The notes under the pieces: model-generated
What the model was told of the DNA's origin: nothing
What the model saw: the letters and a program-made list of their open reading frames with translations, nothing else
Database searches by the model: none
Part shown: positions 29,100 through 35,340 of the stretch, piece after piece
Layout of the letters: the number at the start of each line of letters is the position of its first letter
Numbering within the stretch: the stretch's first letter is position 1
Made by a program: the position numbers and the translations under genes
Source of the DNA: Edaphobacter sp.
Lineage (GTDB): Bacteria; Acidobacteriota; Terriglobia; Terriglobales; Acidobacteriaceae
Length of the DNA: 64,000 bases
Assembly (NCBI GenBank): GCA_035317185.1
Contig: DATHHN010000048.1
Span: 27,194 to 91,193, forward strand
Reading direction: 5' to 3'

Positions 29100-29990
29100 C
29101 TATCGAAGAAGTGCGGTGTACATGTTGATGATGCGGTCGCCGAACTGCGCGGAGAAGAGTCCGCCGATGGCAAGGAAGCTGCCGAAGGCTAGCTTGGTGG
29201 TGGCATGGGCTTTGCCTCGGAACAGCAGGACGACTCCGTAGAGGCTTGCAAGCAGAACGCCGATAAAGAGGGCGAGGATCGATGGCCAGAAGCCGAGAAA
29301 GGCGGCGATCATGGCGAGGAGCTTTACGTCGCCCAAACCCATACCTTCGCGATGGCGAAGGGCTTTATAGAGCCAGCGGACGACCAGGAGGATGAGAGCG
29401 GCTCCGACGATGGCGGCGATACGGCCGAAGATGAGGCTTTCGGGGCCAGTGAGGAAGACGTTGCCGTGATCGGTTACTCCTCCGGGACTGGTGAGGTGAA
29501 GGCTATGTTTGGTGAGAAGGACTTGGTCTTCGGTGGGGCCGAGGAAGATTGCCTGGGTGCAGACGAGGAAGATGGCGATGGCGATCCCGGTCAGGGTGAA
29601 GGTGTCGGGGAGGGTTAATGTCTGCCAGTCGATGACGATGAGGCCTATCAGGAGGAAGCCGAGGATGGCGAGGGATACGATCTCGAGCTTATAGATAACG
29701 CTGGGAGGTGCCGATTGAAGCTGTATCGCCTGCACCATGAACCAGAGGCCTACAGCGAGCTCTACGAGCGGATAACTCCGCGGAATGGACTGTTTGCAGT
29801 CGCGGCAGTGGCCCCGGAGGAGGAGCCAGCTCAGGAGGGGGATGTTGTCGTACCAGCGGATCGTCGCTCCGCATTGTGGGCAGCGGGAACGAGGGTGGAC
29901 GATCGACTCACCATTAGGTATGCGAGAGATGCAGACGTTCAGGAAGCTGCCGAAGATGAGACCTATAAGGAAGCCGAAGAGCTGGATCAC
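29100..29990 (-). CDS. pilD: Prepilin peptidase (A24A)
   Basis: GSFLNVCISRIP, RSRCPQC, NIPLLSWLLLRGHCRDC, IDW..LPD, GMGLGDVKL, AFGSFLA. Confidence 0.93.
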   Translation of the reverse strand: MIQLFGFLIGLIFGSFLNVCISRIPNGESIVHPRSRCPQCGATIRWYDNIPLLSWLLLRGHCRDCKQSIPRSYPLVELAVGLWFMVQAIQLQSAPPSVIYKLEIVSLAILGFLLIGLIVIDWQTLTLPDTFTLTGIAIAIFLVCTQAIFLGPTEDQVLLTKHSLHLTSPGGVTDHGNVFLTGPESLIFGRIAAIVGAALILLVVRWLYKALRHREGMGLGDVKLLAMIAAFLGFWPSILALFIGVLLASLYGVVLLFRGKAHATTKLAFGSFLAIGGLFSAQFGDRIINMYTALLR

Positions 29991-30162
29991 AATCTGGAGT
30001 ATACGGTCTTGGGGTTAGGTTCGAGGCTACATCCCTACCCGTACTTTTTTGCGCAAAGTATTCAATTGATGTGGCTTAGGTTCGTACTTTTGGTTTTAGG
30101 GCAGACATAGAGTGGATCCATGGATAGGGATACCGTAAACGTAAGGTAGAGGAAAACAACCA

Positions 30163-30217
30163 CAGGTCCTTCGACTCCGCAACTCGCAAGTGCGCGAGTT
30201 GCTCCGCTTAGGATGAC
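30163..30217. repeat. REP-like element with an extended hairpin
   Basis: CAGGTCCTTCGACTCC-GCAACTCGC-AAGTGC-GCGAGTTGC-TCCGCTTAGGATGAC; GGATGAC end as at 18007. Confidence 0.7.
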
Positions 30218-30273
30218 ACTTCGATTTTGACCACATCATCTTTTTTTGAAAAACCGGTCTAGGAAAAACCGAT

Positions 30274-31722
30274 CTAGAAGTCGACGTGCATTCTTAGGGA
30301 TTCGACCAGGACCGGACCACGATCTCTGTTGTAGCCGGGGTGGTTGATGGATTGGAGGTCGAGCGCGTAGTAGACGCCGCGCCACGCGTGCAGATTGTAG
30401 TAAGCTTCGACGATGTTTTCGCGACCGTAGTTCAGTTTGCCGTCACCGAGCAGGAAACCGAGGCCACCGTAGGCCAGGTAGTTCTGGTGGTCTTTCTTGA
30501 TGGCATTGCTGACGAAGGTCACGCCCAGCTTGTCGTTGGGGCGGGACCATCCGCGTCCGGAGTAGTCGCCGCCGAACGAGACGGTCTGATCGACCTCGGT
30601 GTAGGCGAAGGACTCGTGCTGGCCCTCGTTCCAGCCGATGCGGGTGAAGGCGCGGAGGTTCCGGGTCACTTCCTGCTCGGCGTTGAGGGCGAAGCCGTAC
30701 TTTACGGAGCTGAACTTCCTGTGTGCGACGATGTCGGGCTTGGGATCCTGTCCGGCGAGGAAGGCATTTACGGCGTCACGATAGAGGCCCATGTTGGCAT
30801 GGTTGACGAAGCTGAGCACGCGGACGGTGCCTTTGCGGTCGGAGGAGACGAGTGGACCGAGCAGCGATTTACGGAGCTCGAACTCCATATTTTGTCCACT
30901 GGCGCGGCTGATGGCCCAGTCGAGGTCGATGCCGTTGGCGGTGGTGGGCATGGCGGCGAGACCGTAGCGGGCGGACCAGTTTTTGTCGTGGTATTCAAGG
31001 ACGCCGGCGTAGGTGTAGCCGCGGGTATCGGCGGCGTAGTCCCAGGCTCCGTTGTTGTCGATGGTCCAATTGAGGAACTGGAGGTGGCTGTCGGAGCCGA
31101 CGGTGTTGATGTCGAAGTAGTCGGGGAGGCTCATCTTGCCGAAGTGGAGCTCGAAGCGACGCTCGGGAACCTGCGTAGCCAGAGCGAAAGGTGTGCGTTC
31201 GCTTTCGATGAGCTTGTCGGTGAGGCCGAGGGTCTGGTGAATCTGAACGCGGGCGATGTAGGGCTTCGAGCCGAGGTTTGGGTTGCGGACGACGTCGAGG
31301 TTGGTGAAGCCGGCGAGACCGAGCGCCTGGCTGATGCCGCGGCCGCCGGAGGATTCAATGTCCAGGATGGCGTCGGTGTTGTACCGGGGGTTGCGGTTGA
31401 CCTGCGCTCCGAGGAAGAGCGTTCCGAGCAGGGAAGTCTTGTATTCGCCTCGGCTTTGGAGGCTGTTGATTCCTTCGTAGGGAGAGTGGAAGGGGCCGTG
31501 GCCCTGCAGGATGATATTGGCTTGCCCGGTCGCCAGAAAGCGGGAGGTTTCAGAGTGCGGAAAGATGGTCAGGGGTGGGTCTGTCTCTGGTGCCGATGGT
31601 TTGGACGGAGCCGCGGGTTTGCTTGGATGCGGATCTTCCGGGAGCAGATCCTGGCCATAGCAAGTGAGCGAAAGAGTAAGAAGAAAGAGAGCGGCCAGCG
31701 CTTGCATCGAGTCCTTGGGCAT
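30274..31722 (-). CDS. OprB/carbohydrate-porin-family outer membrane porin (similar in type to the MnoP metal porin)
   Basis: Signal peptide MQALAALFLLTLSLTCYGQ; GGRGISQALGLAGFTNLD, WTIDNNGAWDYAADTRGYTYAG, GFLLGDGKLNYGRENIVEAYY; C-terminal Phe. Start 31722 or 31707 (SD AAGGA). Confidence 0.85.
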   Translation of the reverse strand: MPKDSMQALAALFLLTLSLTCYGQDLLPEDPHPSKPAAPSKPSAPETDPPLTIFPHSETSRFLATGQANIILQGHGPFHSPYEGINSLQSRGEYKTSLLGTLFLGAQVNRNPRYNTDAILDIESSGGRGISQALGLAGFTNLDVVRNPNLGSKPYIARVQIHQTLGLTDKLIESERTPFALATQVPERRFELHFGKMSLPDYFDINTVGSDSHLQFLNWTIDNNGAWDYAADTRGYTYAGVLEYHDKNWSARYGLAAMPTTANGIDLDWAISRASGQNMEFELRKSLLGPLVSSDRKGTVRVLSFVNHANMGLYRDAVNAFLAGQDPKPDIVAHRKFSSVKYGFALNAEQEVTRNLRAFTRIGWNEGQHESFAYTEVDQTVSFGGDYSGRGWSRPNDKLGVTFVSNAIKKDHQNYLAYGGLGFLLGDGKLNYGRENIVEAYYNLHAWRGVYYALDLQSINHPGYNRDRGPVLVESLRMHVDF

Positions 31723-31998
31723 TCGGGATGATCGTATTAAGGGTGCAGGAGAAGTATGAATATAGAGCAAACAGCCTGCCTTCAAAGAACGACGGGAGAA
31801 GGCAGGCCGCATTGATCCGGGGTCGTCGTCATGGTCGGCGAGGGTATCCGCGATGACTGCGGGCAGGGCGAACCAGACACAGGCGAGCGGACAACGCTCA
31901 TCCGCGGTTTCAACCCAGCGGCGAACGATATCGGGGCGAGGACGGGACATCTTTGATCGATTAAGATGCAACATCCGTTTGGTCATTTGCATGATCAT
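31723..31998 (-). other. In-frame upstream leader region of the porin with its own SD/ATG and an internal hairpin
   Basis: AAAGGAG then ATG 31998; encodes ...IVRRWVETADERCPLACVW...DHDDD...; 10-bp stem GCCTGCCTTC/GAAGGCAGGC at 31774-31807; no stop before the porin. Confidence 0.45.
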
Positions 31999-32070
31999 TT
32001 GGCTGACTTCTCCTTTCTGCTGCAAGACTGGCTGTGAAGGGCTTGCGTCGCGGATGAACAACACTGATAG

Positions 32071-32089
32071 TATACCCCCGTAGGGTATA
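32071..32089. promoter_or_regulatory. CsoR/RcnR-type operator
   Basis: TATACCC-CCGTA-GGGTATA (AT-rich inverted repeat flanking C/G tracts) between the divergent porin and repressor; overlaps a minus-strand TATACT (32074-32069). Confidence 0.8.
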
Positions 32090-32101
32090 GGAGTTATATT
32101 T

Positions 32102-32377
32102 ATGTCACACGTAAATCGTGAAAAAGCGAAGCTGCTGAATCGAATGAAACGGATTCGCGGGCAGATGGAATCGGTCGAGCGAAAGCTTGCAGCCGAGGAC
32201 CATGACTGCGCCGAGGTTTTGATGCTGTTGGCTGCGGTGAGGGGCGGTATCAACGGCTTGATGGCGGAGGTTCTGGAGGACCATATCCGGCTGCATCTTT
32301 TGCAGGACGGTCACGCTCCACTTACACCGGATCTGGGAGAAGATCTGATCGATCTGGTACGGGCGTATCTGAAATGA
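32102..32377 (+). CDS. rcnR: RcnR-type Ni/Co-sensing repressor (CsoR/RcnR family)
   Basis: LLNRMKRIRGQ, and the His3-Cys36-His61-His65 fingerprint counted in the translation. Confidence 0.88.
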   Translation: MSHVNREKAKLLNRMKRIRGQMESVERKLAAEDHDCAEVLMLLAAVRGGINGLMAEVLEDHIRLHLLQDGHAPLTPDLGEDLIDLVRAYLK

Positions 32378-32438
32378 CTGTGCCTTGTGCTCCCGACTCC
32401 CGAGCGGCTGTTGTGCGCCGCTCAGGAATTGGTTGTGT

Positions 32439-32660
32439 CTAGCGGCCTTTGACCCCAACTGCGACCAAGCCGACACCGGCGACAAGTGCGAGGGTGCTAA
32501 GGATGGGGGAGATTGGCAATGTGTCCTTGGTTTCGTGGGAGACCTGGACGGGTCCGAGATCGACGTCTTTCTTCTGGTGCGTGAAGGAGATGCCTCCGGT
32601 GGCAAATCCGATGATGGCTAGGAGAATGAGCAAAGCTCCGATGATGGTTGCTGGTTTCAT
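32439..32660 (-). CDS. Small two-TM protein (DUF3185-like)
   Basis: Two hydrophobic helices around a DLGPVQVSHE loop. Confidence 0.75.
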   Translation of the reverse strand: MKPATIIGALLILLAIIGFATGGISFTHQKKDVDLGPVQVSHETKDTLPISPILSTLALVAGVGLVAVGVKGR

Positions 32661-32811
32661 GGATGGGGTTGACCTTTCGTGCGTCTACGTGCGCGTTATG
32701 CAGTGAGATGCGTAAGTTATTGCAAAGCGATGCCTTTGATTGCGGAATGGACGAGGGCAGTGGTTGGTTTGGTAAACTTGCGGCGTTCTGCGGCATCTGT
32801 GGGAGGTCACT

Positions 32812-35067
32812 TTGTTGAGTCGATCCGTTCCTGTATTTGCGTTGTTTTGTGCAACGGCGAGTTTGCTGGCTCAACAGCAGAGCTTCGGCGGCTCGCTGAG
32901 CGGAAGGCTTACTGACCTTTCAGGCGTGAATGTAGCCGAGGCTACCGTAACGGTGGTGCAGGATGGAACGGAACGATCGTTTTCGACGGCCAGCGATCGA
33001 AATGGAAGGTTCCAGTTTGCCGATCTTCCGGACGGGCGCTATGAGGTGACGGTGCACCGCGCCAACTTCGCCGATGCAAGGCGAGTTGTGACTGTGCAGG
33101 GGCATGAGGCAGCGGTAGTATCTGTTCAACTTGGAAAAGCAGAAAGTGCGGCGCAGCCTAGTCAACGGCTCATCTTCAATACTCCACGATCAAACACTGC
33201 GACGATGCCACTGCTCGACGAGCCTCGGCCTGTGGGTGAGGGGCAGGCGATTGAGATGCCCGATATGCTCAACGGCCTGACGGCGATCCAGGAATTTCGG
33301 GTGATGAACGATGCGTATCGTGCAGGGGTTTCTATGGGCATCCCGGGCGCGAATGCGGCGATGGTTCATGGTGAAGTGTATGGTTTGGCGGGAAACTCGC
33401 TGATGGGTTTGAACGGAATGCTGACCGCTGTTCAGGTTCCGTTGGCGCAGTATGGCGGATCGGTGGGAGGAGCGAGCCAACGCGGAGGGAGCTCGTATTT
33501 TGTGGGTTTCGACCAGAACTCGATGGATCGAAACAAGGTACTCGCGGGTAGTGTTGGCCAGCCTCTTTTACAAAAGGATTCTGCGGGGCACTCGCTGGTG
33601 TCCAATCAGCTTCTGGCGCGAATCGACCATCAGATTGGACAGCGGGATACGGTGAGTGCACGCTATAGCCGTTCGGCTATGAGTAATCCGTTGCAGGGTG
33701 CCGGGGCGCAGGCAGCGGGCCTCAACATACAGCAGCAGACTGCGACGGTGGACAACACGGTTGCGATTTCGCCGCGGACGATCAATGCGACGCAGGCGCA
33801 GTATGTCGATGGAAGTGTGCGGGTTCCGGCGGGGGCGCCGGCACAGGGCATCCAGGCGGATGTGGCAACGGCACGTCGGTACAGGATCTACGAGGCTGCG
33901 GATAATCTTTATCATCAGATGGGCCGCCAGACTATGCAGGTGGGTGGGGATTTCTTCTTCAACCAGATGAGCGTTGCGTTTCTGGAGGGAGCCTCCGGGA
34001 ACGCGAGTTTTGGCCAATCATCGCGAAACGTGGGTTTCTACGCCCAGAATCAGTGGAAGATGAGACCCGACTTTGTGGTGACGGCAGGGGCTCGGTACGA
34101 CCTTGAGTCGTTGAAAAATGTGCATGCCGATACGAATAATGTCGCACCCCAGGTCGGTTTTGCGTGGGCGCCGGGAGGGTCGAGGAGCACGGTGATTCGG
34201 GGCGGCTTCGGTCTGATGTATGAGCAGCTTCCGCTGCCAACGATCTCGGGCGCGGCGGATTCCATGGGAGCGGTCAACCTGGCGCGGTCGGGAAACTTTA
34301 CGGCTGGCCGCAGCGGCATACCGATCGCGTCGCTGGCCAGTTTCAGTGTGGTCGATCCGATGATTCAAAACTCGTATGCGGAGGAGGCAAATGTGGAGTT
34401 CGAGCAGCAACTCGGTGCGCGAACGACGATTTCGGCAAGCTTGCAGCATGTGAGTGGGCGGCAGATTGAATCCCCTGGCTATAACGCCGCGGCGCTTTGT
34501 GCGGTGGCAAGTGGATGCAGTGCGGGGAATGAATTCTACGGAGGAACGCGGTATACGTCCGGATCGAACTCCTCGTATGACGGCCTCTCGGTCTCGTTCG
34601 TTCAGAGGCCGGTGCGCTGGGGCGATTACAAGGTTTCGTATACGTATGCCACCGCGCAGAGCTCAGGCGCGCAGGAGTACAACGCCATTGTAGGAGACCA
34701 GATGCGGCGGGTGTCTTTTACTGGCGCGCTCCACACTTCGCCGGATGCGGCGACGAATCTGTGGCAGAATCTGAGCCATAACTTTGCGTTGACGGGATAT
34801 GGCGACTTTACAAGGCGCAACGAGATGCCCGGGCTGGACTTTATTCATTTCAATGCTCAGTTGGTCAAGAGTTTTCAGCTAGGGACGCGAGCTCGCCTGG
34901 AAGCAGTGGCGCAATCGTTCAACATGCTGGAACATCGAAACTATTCGATCGATAAAGCAAGGGAAGAGCTGGGGGAGTATGGAGTGAACATCCTCTCGTC
35001 GTACGAACGCGTGTCGGCGCTTGCAACGCCGAATGGAAGCCAGGTCGGGTTGCGGCTGAAGTTCTAA
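32812..35067 (+). CDS. Compact TonB-dependent-receptor-like protein with an N-terminal carboxypeptidase-regulatory-like domain
   Basis: Signal peptide; GRLTDLSG..AEATVTV..GRFQFADLPDGRYEV; YAQNQWK..VTAGARYD, APQVGFAWAP, TVIRGGFG; ends GLRLKF; SD GGAGG. Confidence 0.8.
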   Translation: MLSRSVPVFALFCATASLLAQQQSFGGSLSGRLTDLSGVNVAEATVTVVQDGTERSFSTASDRNGRFQFADLPDGRYEVTVHRANFADARRVVTVQGHEAAVVSVQLGKAESAAQPSQRLIFNTPRSNTATMPLLDEPRPVGEGQAIEMPDMLNGLTAIQEFRVMNDAYRAGVSMGIPGANAAMVHGEVYGLAGNSLMGLNGMLTAVQVPLAQYGGSVGGASQRGGSSYFVGFDQNSMDRNKVLAGSVGQPLLQKDSAGHSLVSNQLLARIDHQIGQRDTVSARYSRSAMSNPLQGAGAQAAGLNIQQQTATVDNTVAISPRTINATQAQYVDGSVRVPAGAPAQGIQADVATARRYRIYEAADNLYHQMGRQTMQVGGDFFFNQMSVAFLEGASGNASFGQSSRNVGFYAQNQWKMRPDFVVTAGARYDLESLKNVHADTNNVAPQVGFAWAPGGSRSTVIRGGFGLMYEQLPLPTISGAADSMGAVNLARSGNFTAGRSGIPIASLASFSVVDPMIQNSYAEEANVEFEQQLGARTTISASLQHVSGRQIESPGYNAAALCAVASGCSAGNEFYGGTRYTSGSNSSYDGLSVSFVQRPVRWGDYKVSYTYATAQSSGAQEYNAIVGDQMRRVSFTGALHTSPDAATNLWQNLSHNFALTGYGDFTRRNEMPGLDFIHFNAQLVKSFQLGTRARLEAVAQSFNMLEHRNYSIDKAREELGEYGVNILSSYERVSALATPNGSQVGLRLKF

Positions 35068-35173
35068 GGCAGAGCTTGCATGAGCGGGAGTGTCAGAGTA
35101 ATCTGCGAGTACACGGGAAAGGAGGATGATCCAGCCTATGAAAATTGACAGTAACAGTTGCATCGATAAGCGT

Positions 35174-35340
35174 GAGGTGACTGAGGCTTAGAGCGTCCCT
35201 TGCTCTAGACCTGGCGGTCTTTTCAGAAGTAATGAAGATCCTTGCCGAGGCTCGTTCCGAGTGGGGACGCCTCAGGTCAATCTCAACAGTTCACCGCCAG
35301 ACGGCTCGTTGCTCCTCGGAGCGCGAGCCGTTTGCGTTTA
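35174..35340 (+). ncRNA. Candidate structured RNA of unknown class
   Basis: TTGACA at 35145-35150; extensive self-complementarity in two alternative folds; a 3' hairpin followed by TTTGCGTTT. Identified by hand, with no family match recognised. Confidence 0.5.

What the first reader, a model, noticed from the sequence alone, without database searches (positions are those of the whole stretch)
30274..32377. Ni/Co-type RcnR repressor apparently controlling an outer-membrane porin, with no efflux pump in the locus
Seen: a repressor with the His3/Cys36/His61/His65 fingerprint, a G/C-tract palindrome (32071-32089) overlapping a divergent TATACT, and an OprB-type porin as the only divergent gene. 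Established: RcnR/DmeR release DNA on binding Ni(II)/Co(II) and normally control inner-membrane exporters (RcnA, DmeF); MnoP, a porin of this type, is a Mn2+ uptake channel in Bradyrhizobium. Inference: this porin would be induced by Ni/Co excess, which is unusual for an uptake porin. It may be an outer-membrane exit route or may import a protective competing cation, and an exporter present in relatives may have been lost.
Basis: partly seen in the sequence, partly recalled or inferred. Interest (0 to 1): 0.7.

Follow-up and report, generated by a model that had tools for sequence, protein, structure and literature searches.

The report
Metal-sensor repressor controlling a porin
A small metal-sensing repressor of the RcnR type sits back to back with an outer-membrane cation porin and almost certainly switches it on and off through one shared DNA site; this pairing is conserved across a whole family of soil Acidobacteria, has not been described in the literature I could search, and carries an unannotated leader peptide.

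Summary
The window holds a 91-aa CsoR/RcnR-family protein with H3/C36/H61/H65, a unique palindrome TATACCC-N5-GGGTATA at 32071-32089, a divergent OprB-family porin, and no metal exporter anywhere in the 64 kb.

Comparative genomics supports the regulatory inference:
- 46 of 80 Acidobacteriaceae porin loci carry the same divergent repressor, with the same operator.
- At least 7 loci that lost the repressor gene keep the operator in front of the porin.
- In at least 11 loci the operator fills the spacer after a TTGACA -35 box pointing at the target gene.

The "lost exporter" idea is not supported. No genome relative has one in that position. The recurring partners are uptake genes: mntR-mntH next door, or an Nramp-like gene between leader and porin. 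One metagenomic relative of the repressor does control a CzcCBA-type pump, which fits a metal-excess sensor.

It belongs to an unannotated family that also precedes the Nramp-like genes.

The metal sensed and the porin's role under stress remain inferred. Protective Mn2+ entry and a metal exit route are both open.

Verdict: a new variant of a known kind, moderately to highly interesting.

The parts
32102..32377 (+). rcnR-like gene: 91-aa CsoR/RcnR-family repressor with His3, Cys36, His61, His65
   Evidence: PF02583 E=7e-19. Closest solved relatives are FrmR 5LBM (E=5e-18) and 5LCY. Cys36/His61/His65 are invariant in 46 orthologues.
32071..32089 (.). Operator: palindrome TATACCC-CCGTA-GGGTATA (core ATACCCCCGTAGGGTAT, 32072-32088), a C/G tract flanked by AT-rich inverted repeats
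   Evidence: Unique in the window, 0.02 expected. Conserved upstream of every rcnR orthologue and upstream of porins lacking rcnR. About 35 of 119 metagenome matches lie next to a CsoR-family ORF.
32069..32074 (-). -10-like hexamer TATACT of the leader-porin transcription unit, overlapping the operator (inferred promoter element)
   Evidence: A TAnnnT hexamer at this position is conserved in the porin direction in nearly all loci. Relatives have TTGACA immediately 5' of the operator. The simple sigma-70 scan did not call a promoter in the window itself.
32010..32017 (-). Shine-Dalgarno GAAAGGAG of the leader ORF
   Evidence: G(A/G)A(A/G)AGGAG is conserved in all 8 aligned long leaders; coordinates.
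31723..31998 (-). Leader ORF of 92 codons (MIMQMTKRML...), with invariant core RRWVETADERCPLACVWFAL at 31864-31923. In this genome it runs in frame into the porin without a stop.
   Evidence: The core varies at third codon positions, which indicates selection on the peptide. There are 59 stand-alone small-protein clusters and 78 representative clusters, with no Pfam/NCBIfam family. Relatives L005, L007, L022, L089, L209 and L211 have a stop just before the porin start. A homologous ORF precedes the Nramp-like gene in L071 (hhalign 94%).
31773..31808 (-). Conserved RNA hairpin inside the leader ORF (GGCCUGCCUUC ... GAAGGCAGGCU)
   Evidence: Ten pairs are kept in 8 loci, with compensatory double changes in L007 (1), L005 (1) and L022 (5). 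No U-tract follows, and the scan does not call it a terminator.
31754..31772 (-). Conserved box GTTTGCTCTATATTCATAC of unknown role
   Evidence: GTTTGCnCnnCATTCAyA recurs 55-75 nt upstream of the porin start in both long and short leaders. In short leaders it is read in another frame, as a mini-ORF.
30274..31722 (-). OprB/MnoP-type outer-membrane porin. Start at 31722 (MPKDSMQALAALFLLTLSLTCYGQ) or, better conserved, at 31707 (MQALAAL...).
   Evidence: PF04966 E=5e-26. Homologues 70-92% identical are named 'high affinity Mn2+ porin' by JGI. The alignment shows the signal peptide. One 151-nt metatranscriptome contig lies on it.

Best explanation
This is a conserved regulatory module of Acidobacteriaceae. 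A tetrameric RcnR/FrmR-clade metal sensor binds one operator between two divergent promoters. From there it represses both its own gene and a transcription unit made of a leader ORF, a hairpin and an OprB/MnoP-type porin. When the sensor's Cys36/His61/His65 (+His3, N-terminal amine) site fills with a divalent transition metal, it leaves the DNA and the leader-porin mRNA is made. Ni(II)/Co(II) is the most likely metal by ligand set, but this is not shown. Translation of the porin is then tied to translation of the leader ORF, which ends at, or here runs into, the porin start. In relatives the porin belongs to the divalent-cation uptake set: it sits beside mntR-mntH, or in an operon behind an Nramp-like gene. 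The most likely output is therefore more outer-membrane entry of a benign competitor such as Mn2+ during metal stress, rather than a remnant of an efflux operon. Status of each step: shown are the anatomy, the conservation of the pair, the operator and the leader, and the absence of an exporter. Strongly inferred (about 0.85) is that the repressor controls the porin. Inferred (about 0.45) is Ni/Co as effector. Inferred (about 0.35) is protective Mn import as the purpose.
For: Pairing: 46 of 80 porin loci in species-representative genomes have the divergent rcnR. The pair occurs in at least three different chromosomal contexts (thiG/pilD-nuo, amt-glnB-glnD, others). All nine loci fetched through rcnR orthologues, all four fetched through leader-ORF homologues (L210 fragmentary) and seven metagenome contigs also show it. 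Operator: it is conserved 10-45 nt before each rcnR start and is duplicated in 10 loci. It is retained with its TAnnnT hexamer before the porin in at least 7 loci without an adjacent rcnR. It is preceded directly by TTGAC(A/T/C) in 11 loci. A second copy stands between TTGACA and a TA-rich hexamer upstream of the leader ORF and Nramp-like gene in L071, where 0.03 matches are expected in the 1.1 Mb searched. Sensor type: PF02583; Cys36, His61 and His65 invariant; closest to FrmR structures but with Ser2 instead of Pro2 and His at the Z position. A 61%-identical relative nested among the porin-linked ones faces an OEP-MFP-RND operon carrying the heavy-metal signature DFGMVVDGAVVMVEN and scoring 970 bits on TIGR00914. 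Uptake context: bona fide MntH (636 bits, DPGN/MPHN) with a DtxR/MntR-type gene lies next to the pair in L005, L007 and L211; mntR-mntH-porin lie on one strand in L028; L066 has rcnR <-> operator -> leader ORF -> Nramp-like -> porin. No exporter was found in the window.
Against: No expression or binding data exist. Public RNA runs gave only a trace of porin transcript. The window's own promoter lacks a recognisable -35, and the consensus scan calls none. His3 is missing in about half of the orthologues, and the protein is below the NCBIfam cut-offs for both RcnR (62 vs 138 bits) and FrmR (83 vs 133). The Nramp-like genes that share the operator are non-canonical (DNDAGA, no MPHN), so their substrate and even their direction of transport are unknown. 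The canonical mntH genes nearby do not carry the operator. Inducing an uptake channel when a metal is in excess is counter-intuitive. In rcnR-less loci I could not verify that rcnR is encoded elsewhere in the genome.
Confidence: 0.45

Rival explanations
1. Exit route. The sensor reports metal excess, and the porin (with the non-canonical Nramp-like protein in some relatives) lets the surplus metal leave: across the inner membrane by the Nramp-like carrier or another exporter encoded elsewhere, and across the outer membrane by the porin.
For: The same repressor clade controls a CzcCBA-type efflux pump in L166 and sits before a P-type ATPase in L179. In L066 an inner-membrane carrier and the porin are co-transcribed behind the operator. 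The carrier lacks the DPGN/MPHN motifs of importers.
Against: To my knowledge no Nramp-family exporter is known (own knowledge). The porin's closest named relatives are Mn uptake porins. The porin sits in a cluster with canonical mntR-mntH in L028 and next to them in L005/L007/L211. A passive porin gives no direction.
Confidence: 0.2
2. Different signal or inverted logic. The protein does not report Ni/Co excess. Either it senses another ion or stress for which more Mn entry is the normal answer (Fe(II), Zn(II), an oxidant acting on Cys36), or metal binding strengthens DNA binding so that it acts like a classical uptake repressor.
For: The regulon seen here consists of uptake-type genes (porin, Nramp-like). 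His3, needed for the Co response in E. coli RcnR (PMC11672702), is not conserved. The sequence is closer to FrmR than to RcnR. A FrmR with His at the Z position gains Zn/Co sensing (PMC4528141).
Against: Every characterised CsoR-family member is released from DNA by its inducer (PMC11672702). The L166 relative controls heavy-metal efflux. A DtxR/MntR-type regulator already stands next to mntH in the same loci, which argues for a different input. With one Cys per protomer and invariant His61/His65, a metal site is the simplest reading.
Confidence: 0.2
3. Autoregulation only. The operator serves rcnR alone, and the porin is merely a syntenic neighbour.
For: The operator lies 13 nt before the rcnR start codon. 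The whole neighbourhood (thiG ... pilD-nuo) is syntenic, so adjacency alone could be inherited.
Against: The operator and hexamer are kept before the porin where rcnR is gone. The pair moves together between unrelated contexts. The TTGACA-operator-TA-rich geometry points to the porin, leader or Nramp side. An operator without rcnR stands before the Nramp-like gene in L071.
Confidence: 0.05
4. Anatomy rival. The 574-aa reading frame is one real protein, so the 92 N-terminal residues are part of the porin precursor rather than a separate leader ORF.
For: In the window and in L001, L002, L003 and L009 there is no stop between them, and an in-frame 69-nt deletion in L003 keeps the frame. At least 19 homologues are called as about 570-aa proteins.
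Against: A normal signal peptide follows residue 92. L005, L007, L022, L089, L209 and L211 have a stop 14-25 nt before the porin start. There are 59-78 stand-alone clusters of 60-130 aa. The same peptide precedes an Nramp-like gene. The C-terminal half of the extension evolves as an RNA hairpin, not as protein.
Confidence: 0.1

Closest known systems
E. coli RcnR-RcnA/RcnB and rhizobial DmeR-DmeF (Ni/Co sensors of the CsoR family)
   Same: About 90-aa PF02583 protein, N-terminus Met-Ser-His, H-C-H-H ligand set, divergent arrangement with the target gene, and one or two operators made of a C/G tract flanked by AT-rich inverted repeats (family features from PMC11672702 and own knowledge).
   Different: The target is an outer-membrane porin (and an Nramp-like carrier in relatives), not an inner-membrane exporter. 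The score is far below the NCBIfam RcnR equivalog cut-off. His3 is not conserved in the orthologue group. A leader ORF is interposed.
FrmR (formaldehyde sensor) and its E64H variant
   Same: Highest sequence similarity (5LBM E=5e-18; NCBIfam FrmR 83 bits). Like the engineered E64H FrmR that gained Zn/Co sensing, it has His at the Z position (PMC4528141).
   Different: Ser2 replaces Pro2, which is required for the formaldehyde cross-link (PMC11672702). No frmA-type gene is nearby.
MnoP-MntH-Mur of Bradyrhizobium japonicum (Mn2+ porin plus Nramp importer)
   Same: An OprB-family porin teamed with an Nramp transporter. Homologues carry the JGI name 'high affinity Mn2+ porin'. Canonical mntH and an MntR-type gene are adjacent in relatives. 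MnoP's role as a Mn porin is cited in PMC6011978.
   Different: In Bradyrhizobium the pair is repressed by Mn through a Fur-family protein (own knowledge). Here the porin is under a CsoR-family repressor that, by family rule, is released by metal.
CsoR-type operators of Firmicutes/Actinobacteria (copZA and similar)
   Same: The same sequence type, ATACCC-N4-5-GGGTAT, occurs beside csoR genes of many phyla in the metagenome scan.
   Different: Those sensors use Cys-His-Cys for Cu(I) and control Cu ATPases.
Leader-peptide control of cation transporters (e.g. mgtL-mgtA, corA leader) and arrest peptides
   Same: A well-translated short ORF with an invariant 17-20-residue core and variable flanks, followed by a conserved RNA structure, directly upstream of a metal-transport gene.
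   Different: No similarity to any described leader; no alternative terminator/antiterminator pair recognised; the ORF is long (60-130 codons); the mechanism is untested.

Membership tests
CsoR/RcnR superfamily (PF02583) | Profile match over the about 90-residue helical-bundle repressor | tested here: met
   PF02583 E=7.1e-19, 68 bits vs cut-off 22.8; nine PDB relatives, all CsoR family.
RcnR (Ni/Co sensor) | W-X-Y-Z fingerprint His-Cys-His-His with Ser2/His3 at the N-terminus | tested here: met
   H3, C36, H61, H65 and MSH in the window protein. C/H/H are invariant in 46 orthologues; His3 is present in only about half.
RcnR (Ni/Co sensor) | Score above the curated NCBIfam equivalog cut-off | tested here: not met
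   NF011613 scores 62.4 bits vs cut-off 138.
RcnR (Ni/Co sensor) | Operator with a G/C tract flanked by AT-rich inverted repeats in the regulator-target intergenic region | tested here: met
   TATACCCCCGTAGGGTATA, unique in the window, conserved in orthologous loci.
RcnR (Ni/Co sensor) | Controls a Ni/Co exporter (rcnA, dmeF or similar) | tested here: not met
   No exporter in the window or in the flanks of the 46 genome loci. Only the metagenomic relative L166 faces a CzcCBA-type pump.
RcnR (Ni/Co sensor) | Ni(II)/Co(II)-dependent release from DNA | not testable with these tools
   Needs EMSA or fluorescence anisotropy with metal titration.
FrmR (formaldehyde sensor) | Pro2-Cys35-His60-x motif, and score above the equivalog cut-off | tested here: not met
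   Ser2 instead of Pro2; His at the Z position; NF008464 scores 82.8 bits vs cut-off 133.
OprB-family porin | PF04966 beta-barrel profile, plus an N-terminal signal peptide | tested here: met
   E=4.9e-26, residues 177-482. The hydrophobic stretch ALAALFLLTLSLTCYG-Q is conserved in the alignment; the signal peptide was judged by reading, not by a predictor.
MnoP-type Mn2+ porin | Works with MntH in Mn2+ uptake and is shut off by Mn | tested here: inconclusive
   Supported by context only: JGI names, and canonical mntR-mntH adjacent or co-directional in L005, L007, L028 and L211. Channel selectivity and Mn response cannot be tested here. Regulation here is by a CsoR-family protein, not a Fur/Mur type.
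Leader-peptide attenuator | Translated short ORF upstream of the regulated gene, conserved at peptide level | tested here: met
   SD GAAAGGAG + ATG; third-position variation in an invariant core; 78 representative clusters.
Leader-peptide attenuator | Alternative RNA structures (terminator or SD-sequestering helix) governed by the ribosome's position | tested here: inconclusive
   One hairpin is conserved with compensatory changes. It has no U-tract and is not called as a terminator. The SD/anti-SD pairing in the MFE fold is not conserved in relatives.

The most novel reading that the evidence does not exclude
The module may be a two-tier metal switch for cation uptake of a kind not described before. 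Tier one is a CsoR/RcnR-family repressor whose regulon is an outer-membrane porin plus an Nramp-family carrier, making it the first member of this family dedicated to import genes and possibly one with a new effector or inverted allostery. Tier two is a new family of leader peptides, (W/F)VETGDERCPLA(C/G)(V/I)W, predicted to form a beta-hairpin with a CxxxC pair. These would sense a metal or the translation state and couple it to expression of the downstream transporter.
Probability: 0.2. Interest if true: 0.85.

Novelty: new variant of a known kind. Interest (0 to 1): 0.62.

Why it matters
CsoR/RcnR-family sensors are textbook regulators of efflux and detoxification (PMC11672702). A conserved lineage that instead switches an outer-membrane cation channel, and in some genera an Nramp-like carrier, would show that soil Acidobacteria answer metal stress by changing what enters the cell. 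This is relevant to life in acidic, metal-rich peat and forest soils where these bacteria dominate. It also gives a directly testable case of outer-membrane permeability being under a cytosolic metal sensor. Finally, it uncovers an unannotated, narrowly distributed leader-peptide family linked to metal transport genes, which could be a new cis-regulatory device.

Tried and rejected
- Riboswitch in the 379-bp gap: no Rfam match with E<1 in 29900-33000 (one chance snoRNA hit at E=0.99 lies outside the gap), and no family at gathering score in the whole window.
- Simple promoter/terminator scan of 31600-32500: nothing called.
- Lost exporter: multi-TM ORFs were searched in all 80 loci. Only PilD, Amt, Nramp, TauE, PMT and similar were found.
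- L084 RND pump downstream of rcnR: its TM4 motif IDNSVVVLEN is of the multidrug type, not the heavy-metal type, so I do not count it.
- Small ORF in the L166 leader: similarity to the leader family is not significant (hhalign E=0.17).
- uORF SD pairing with ACUUCUCCU in the MFE fold: not conserved in relatives, dropped.
- Hairpin as intrinsic terminator: no U-tract, and in L022 none at all.
- Expression data: only DNA metagenomes hold the locus. One metatranscriptome gave a 151-nt porin contig, and an RNA search with E. modestus DNA gave nothing useful.
- Literature: no paper links RcnR/DmeR to a porin or Nramp gene, none contains the peptide motif, and the Granulicella trace-metal proteome paper mentions no porin.
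Full report
**What is there**

On the plus strand, 32102-32377 encodes a 91-residue protein (MSHVNREKAK...) that matches the metal-sensitive repressor family PF02583 at E=7e-19. Direct reading gives His3, Cys36, His61 and His65. Against NCBI's curated models it scores 83 bits for FrmR and 62 bits for RcnR, both far below the cut-offs of 133 and 138. Its closest solved relatives are the two FrmR structures (5LBM, E=5e-18; 5LCY). However, it has Ser2 where FrmR needs Pro2, and His where E. coli FrmR has Thr and Salmonella FrmR has Glu. It is therefore a member of the RcnR/FrmR clade with the RcnR ligand set.

Thirteen bases upstream of its start lies TATACCC-CCGTA-GGGTATA (32071-32089). This is the only such site in 64 kb even with two mismatches allowed, against 0.02 expected by chance.

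On the minus strand, 30274-31722 encodes an OprB-family porin (PF04966, E=5e-26) with a typical signal peptide. Neither the neighbours (PilD, NADH dehydrogenase genes, a 73-aa membrane protein, a 751-aa beta-barrel protein, ThiG, RuvC) nor any other ORF of the window is a metal exporter.

**Is the pairing more than neighbourhood?**

I fetched 80 loci from species-representative genomes with a porin profile; nearly all are labelled Acidobacteriaceae/Terriglobales.
- Forty-six carry an orthologue of the repressor (56-99% identity), divergent and directly upstream of the porin.
- The pair occurs in at least three unrelated chromosomal settings: between thiG and pilD-nuo, after amt-glnB-glnD, and elsewhere. 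It therefore travels as a unit.
- Nine loci fetched through repressor orthologues, four fetched through leader-ORF homologues (one of them, L210, fragmentary) and seven metagenome contigs show the same pair. One has a porin only 33% identical.
- Cys36, His61 and His65 are invariant in the orthologues. His3 is present in about half.

**Whose operator is it?**

Every rcnR orthologue is preceded by (A/G)TATAC-C3-5-N2-4-G2-3-GTAT, and ten loci have two sites in tandem. Three results tie the site to the porin side.
- At least seven loci that lack an adjacent rcnR (L013, L016, L018, L030, L033, L036, L051; near matches in L004 and L019) keep the site 115-605 nt upstream of the porin's inferred start, together with the TAnnnT hexamer that overlaps it in the porin direction.
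- In eleven loci the site is immediately preceded by TTGAC(A/T/C) and followed by a TA-rich hexamer. The operator thus fills the spacer of a promoter that fires toward the porin or leader.
- In L071 a second copy stands in just such a promoter upstream of a different gene, an Nramp-family carrier, with no rcnR beside it. The pattern is expected 0.03 times in the 1.1 Mb searched.

The same sequence type lies beside CsoR-family genes of many phyla: about 35 of 119 metagenome matches. This confirms it as a family operator. In the window itself the -10-like TATACT (32074-32069, minus strand) overlaps the operator, but no -35 is recognisable and the consensus scan calls no promoter. The window's own promoter is therefore inferred from relatives.

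**What the "leader" is**

The 379-bp gap is not a riboswitch. It contains a strong Shine-Dalgarno (GAAAGGAG, 32017-32010) and an ATG at 31998 that opens a 92-codon ORF.

Across relatives whose porin barrels are only about 70% identical, the core RRWVETADERCPLACVWFAL is nearly invariant. The DNA alignment shows changes concentrated at third codon positions, which indicates selection on the peptide.

About 55 nt after the core comes a hairpin (31808-31773). Its ten base pairs are kept in eight loci, with one, one and five compensatory double changes in L007, L005 and L022. These changes alter the encoded amino acids, which indicates selection on the RNA.

In the window and four close relatives the ORF runs in frame into the porin, which is why gene callers report about 570-aa porins. 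In L005, L007, L022, L089, L209 and L211 it has its own stop 14-25 nt before the porin start. That spacing suggests translational coupling.

The peptide belongs to a small unannotated family:
- 59 clusters were found with the word-indexed search, and 78 representative clusters in 1.84 billion proteins. Nearly all are 59-130 aa, with no Pfam or NCBIfam model.
- The general motif is (W/F)VETGDERCPLA(C/G)(V/I)W.
- AlphaFold models only the core, as a beta-hairpin with pLDDT 79-87; the rest has low confidence.
- A homologous ORF (hhalign probability 94%, E=1.4e-7) precedes the Nramp-like gene of L071. In L066 the order is rcnR <-> operator -> leader ORF -> Nramp-like gene -> porin.

The leader family therefore goes with the operator-controlled transport genes, not with the porin as such.

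**No lost exporter, but uptake partners**

A search of all 80 loci for multi-helix membrane proteins found no NicO/RcnA, CDF, P-type ATPase or RND gene near the pair. What recurs instead:
- A bona fide MntH (636 bits on the MntH model; DPGN and MPHN motifs) with a DtxR/MntR-type gene next to the pair in L005, L007 and L211.
- mntR-mntH-porin on one strand, without rcnR, in L028.
- The Nramp-like genes behind the leader in L066 and L071. These are non-canonical (DNDAGA instead of DPGN, no MPHN) and pass only the generic Nramp model.

JGI names the 70-92% identical porins "high affinity Mn2+ porin". MnoP of Bradyrhizobium is the characterised Mn porin (PMC6011978).

On the other side, one metagenomic repressor (L166, 61% identity) nests among the porin-linked ones in a neighbour-joining tree. 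It faces an OEP-MFP-RND operon whose pump carries DFGMVVDGAVVMVEN and scores 970 bits on the CusA/CzcA model. A 50%-identical one precedes a P-type ATPase. The RND pump downstream of rcnR in L084 is of the multidrug type, and I do not count it.

**How it most likely works**

By family rule, CsoR/RcnR proteins bind DNA in the apo form and are released by their inducer. H-C-H-H marks Ni/Co sensors, with the N-terminal His needed for Co but not for Ni (PMC11672702). The efflux-linked relatives fit a metal-excess sensor.

I therefore read the module as follows. Metal excess releases the repressor. The leader-porin mRNA (and rcnR) is transcribed. Porin synthesis then depends on translation of the leader ORF.

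Because the porin's company is Mn-uptake machinery, the most economical purpose is extra entry of Mn2+, or another benign cation, to compete with the toxic one.

The rivals are:
- An exit route for the metal.
- A different effector or inverted allostery, which would make this a true uptake regulator.
- Pure autoregulation, which is now unlikely.

Which metal is sensed and what the porin conducts cannot be settled with sequence tools.

**Comparison and novelty**

The repressor works like RcnR/DmeR, but it fails two membership tests: the curated score and an exporter target. The porin resembles MnoP but is under a different kind of regulator.

I found no paper linking a CsoR-family sensor to a porin or an Nramp gene, and none containing the leader motif. 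I rate it a new variant of a known kind. Its unexpected target class is conserved across a bacterial family, and it carries an undescribed leader-peptide element.

Noticed in passing
window 35126-35191 (+), with flanks 35110-35300: A 21-codon ORF (MIQPMKIDSNSCIDKREVTEA*) with a very strong Shine-Dalgarno, followed by GC-rich hairpins, lies upstream of thiG. The same element is conserved upstream of thiG in many relatives, and no TPP riboswitch or any other Rfam family is found in the window. It may be a leader peptide or an undescribed thiamine control element.
   Followed up: partly
window 32439-32660 (-): A 73-aa two-helix membrane protein convergent with rcnR. It is conserved at this position in most relatives and has no family above cut-off (weak DUF4383 hit).
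   Followed up: partly
window 32812-35067 (+): A 751-aa outer-membrane beta-barrel protein (CarboxypepD_reg + OMP_b-brl_4) is an insertion between the 73-aa gene and thiG compared with relatives. The same slot holds mntR-mntH, an RND pump or OmpA/UvrC in other genomes, so it looks like a variable spot.
   Followed up: partly
window 31754-31772 (-); L013, L016, L018, L030, L036, L051, L006, L026, L027 leaders: The box GTTTGCnCnnCATTCAyA is shared by long and short porin leaders. In Granulicella-type short leaders it is read as a mini-ORF M-x-(V/I/L)-C-T-P-F-(T/I) located 15-17 codons before, and in frame with, the porin start; in L027 the mini-ORF has its own stop after 10 codons. In the window it is read in another frame. 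Its role is unknown.
   Followed up: partly
L066 2549-3865 and L071 3879-5189: The Nramp-family genes behind the leader ORF have DNDAGA in place of the DPGN metal-site motif and lack MPHN. This is a divergent clade of unknown substrate.
   Followed up: partly
window 31723-31998 (-) and P0001: Public gene calls fuse the leader ORF to the porin (574 aa), here and in many metagenome homologues. This is an annotation artefact, or a real read-through product, worth flagging.
   Followed up: yes
L044, L047, L048, L057, L060, L061, L068, L070, L071, L078 intergenic regions: Two operators in tandem, about 21-25 nt centre to centre, in the Terracidiphilus-like group. This suggests binding of two tetramers, as at some RcnR/CsoR sites.
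   Followed up: no
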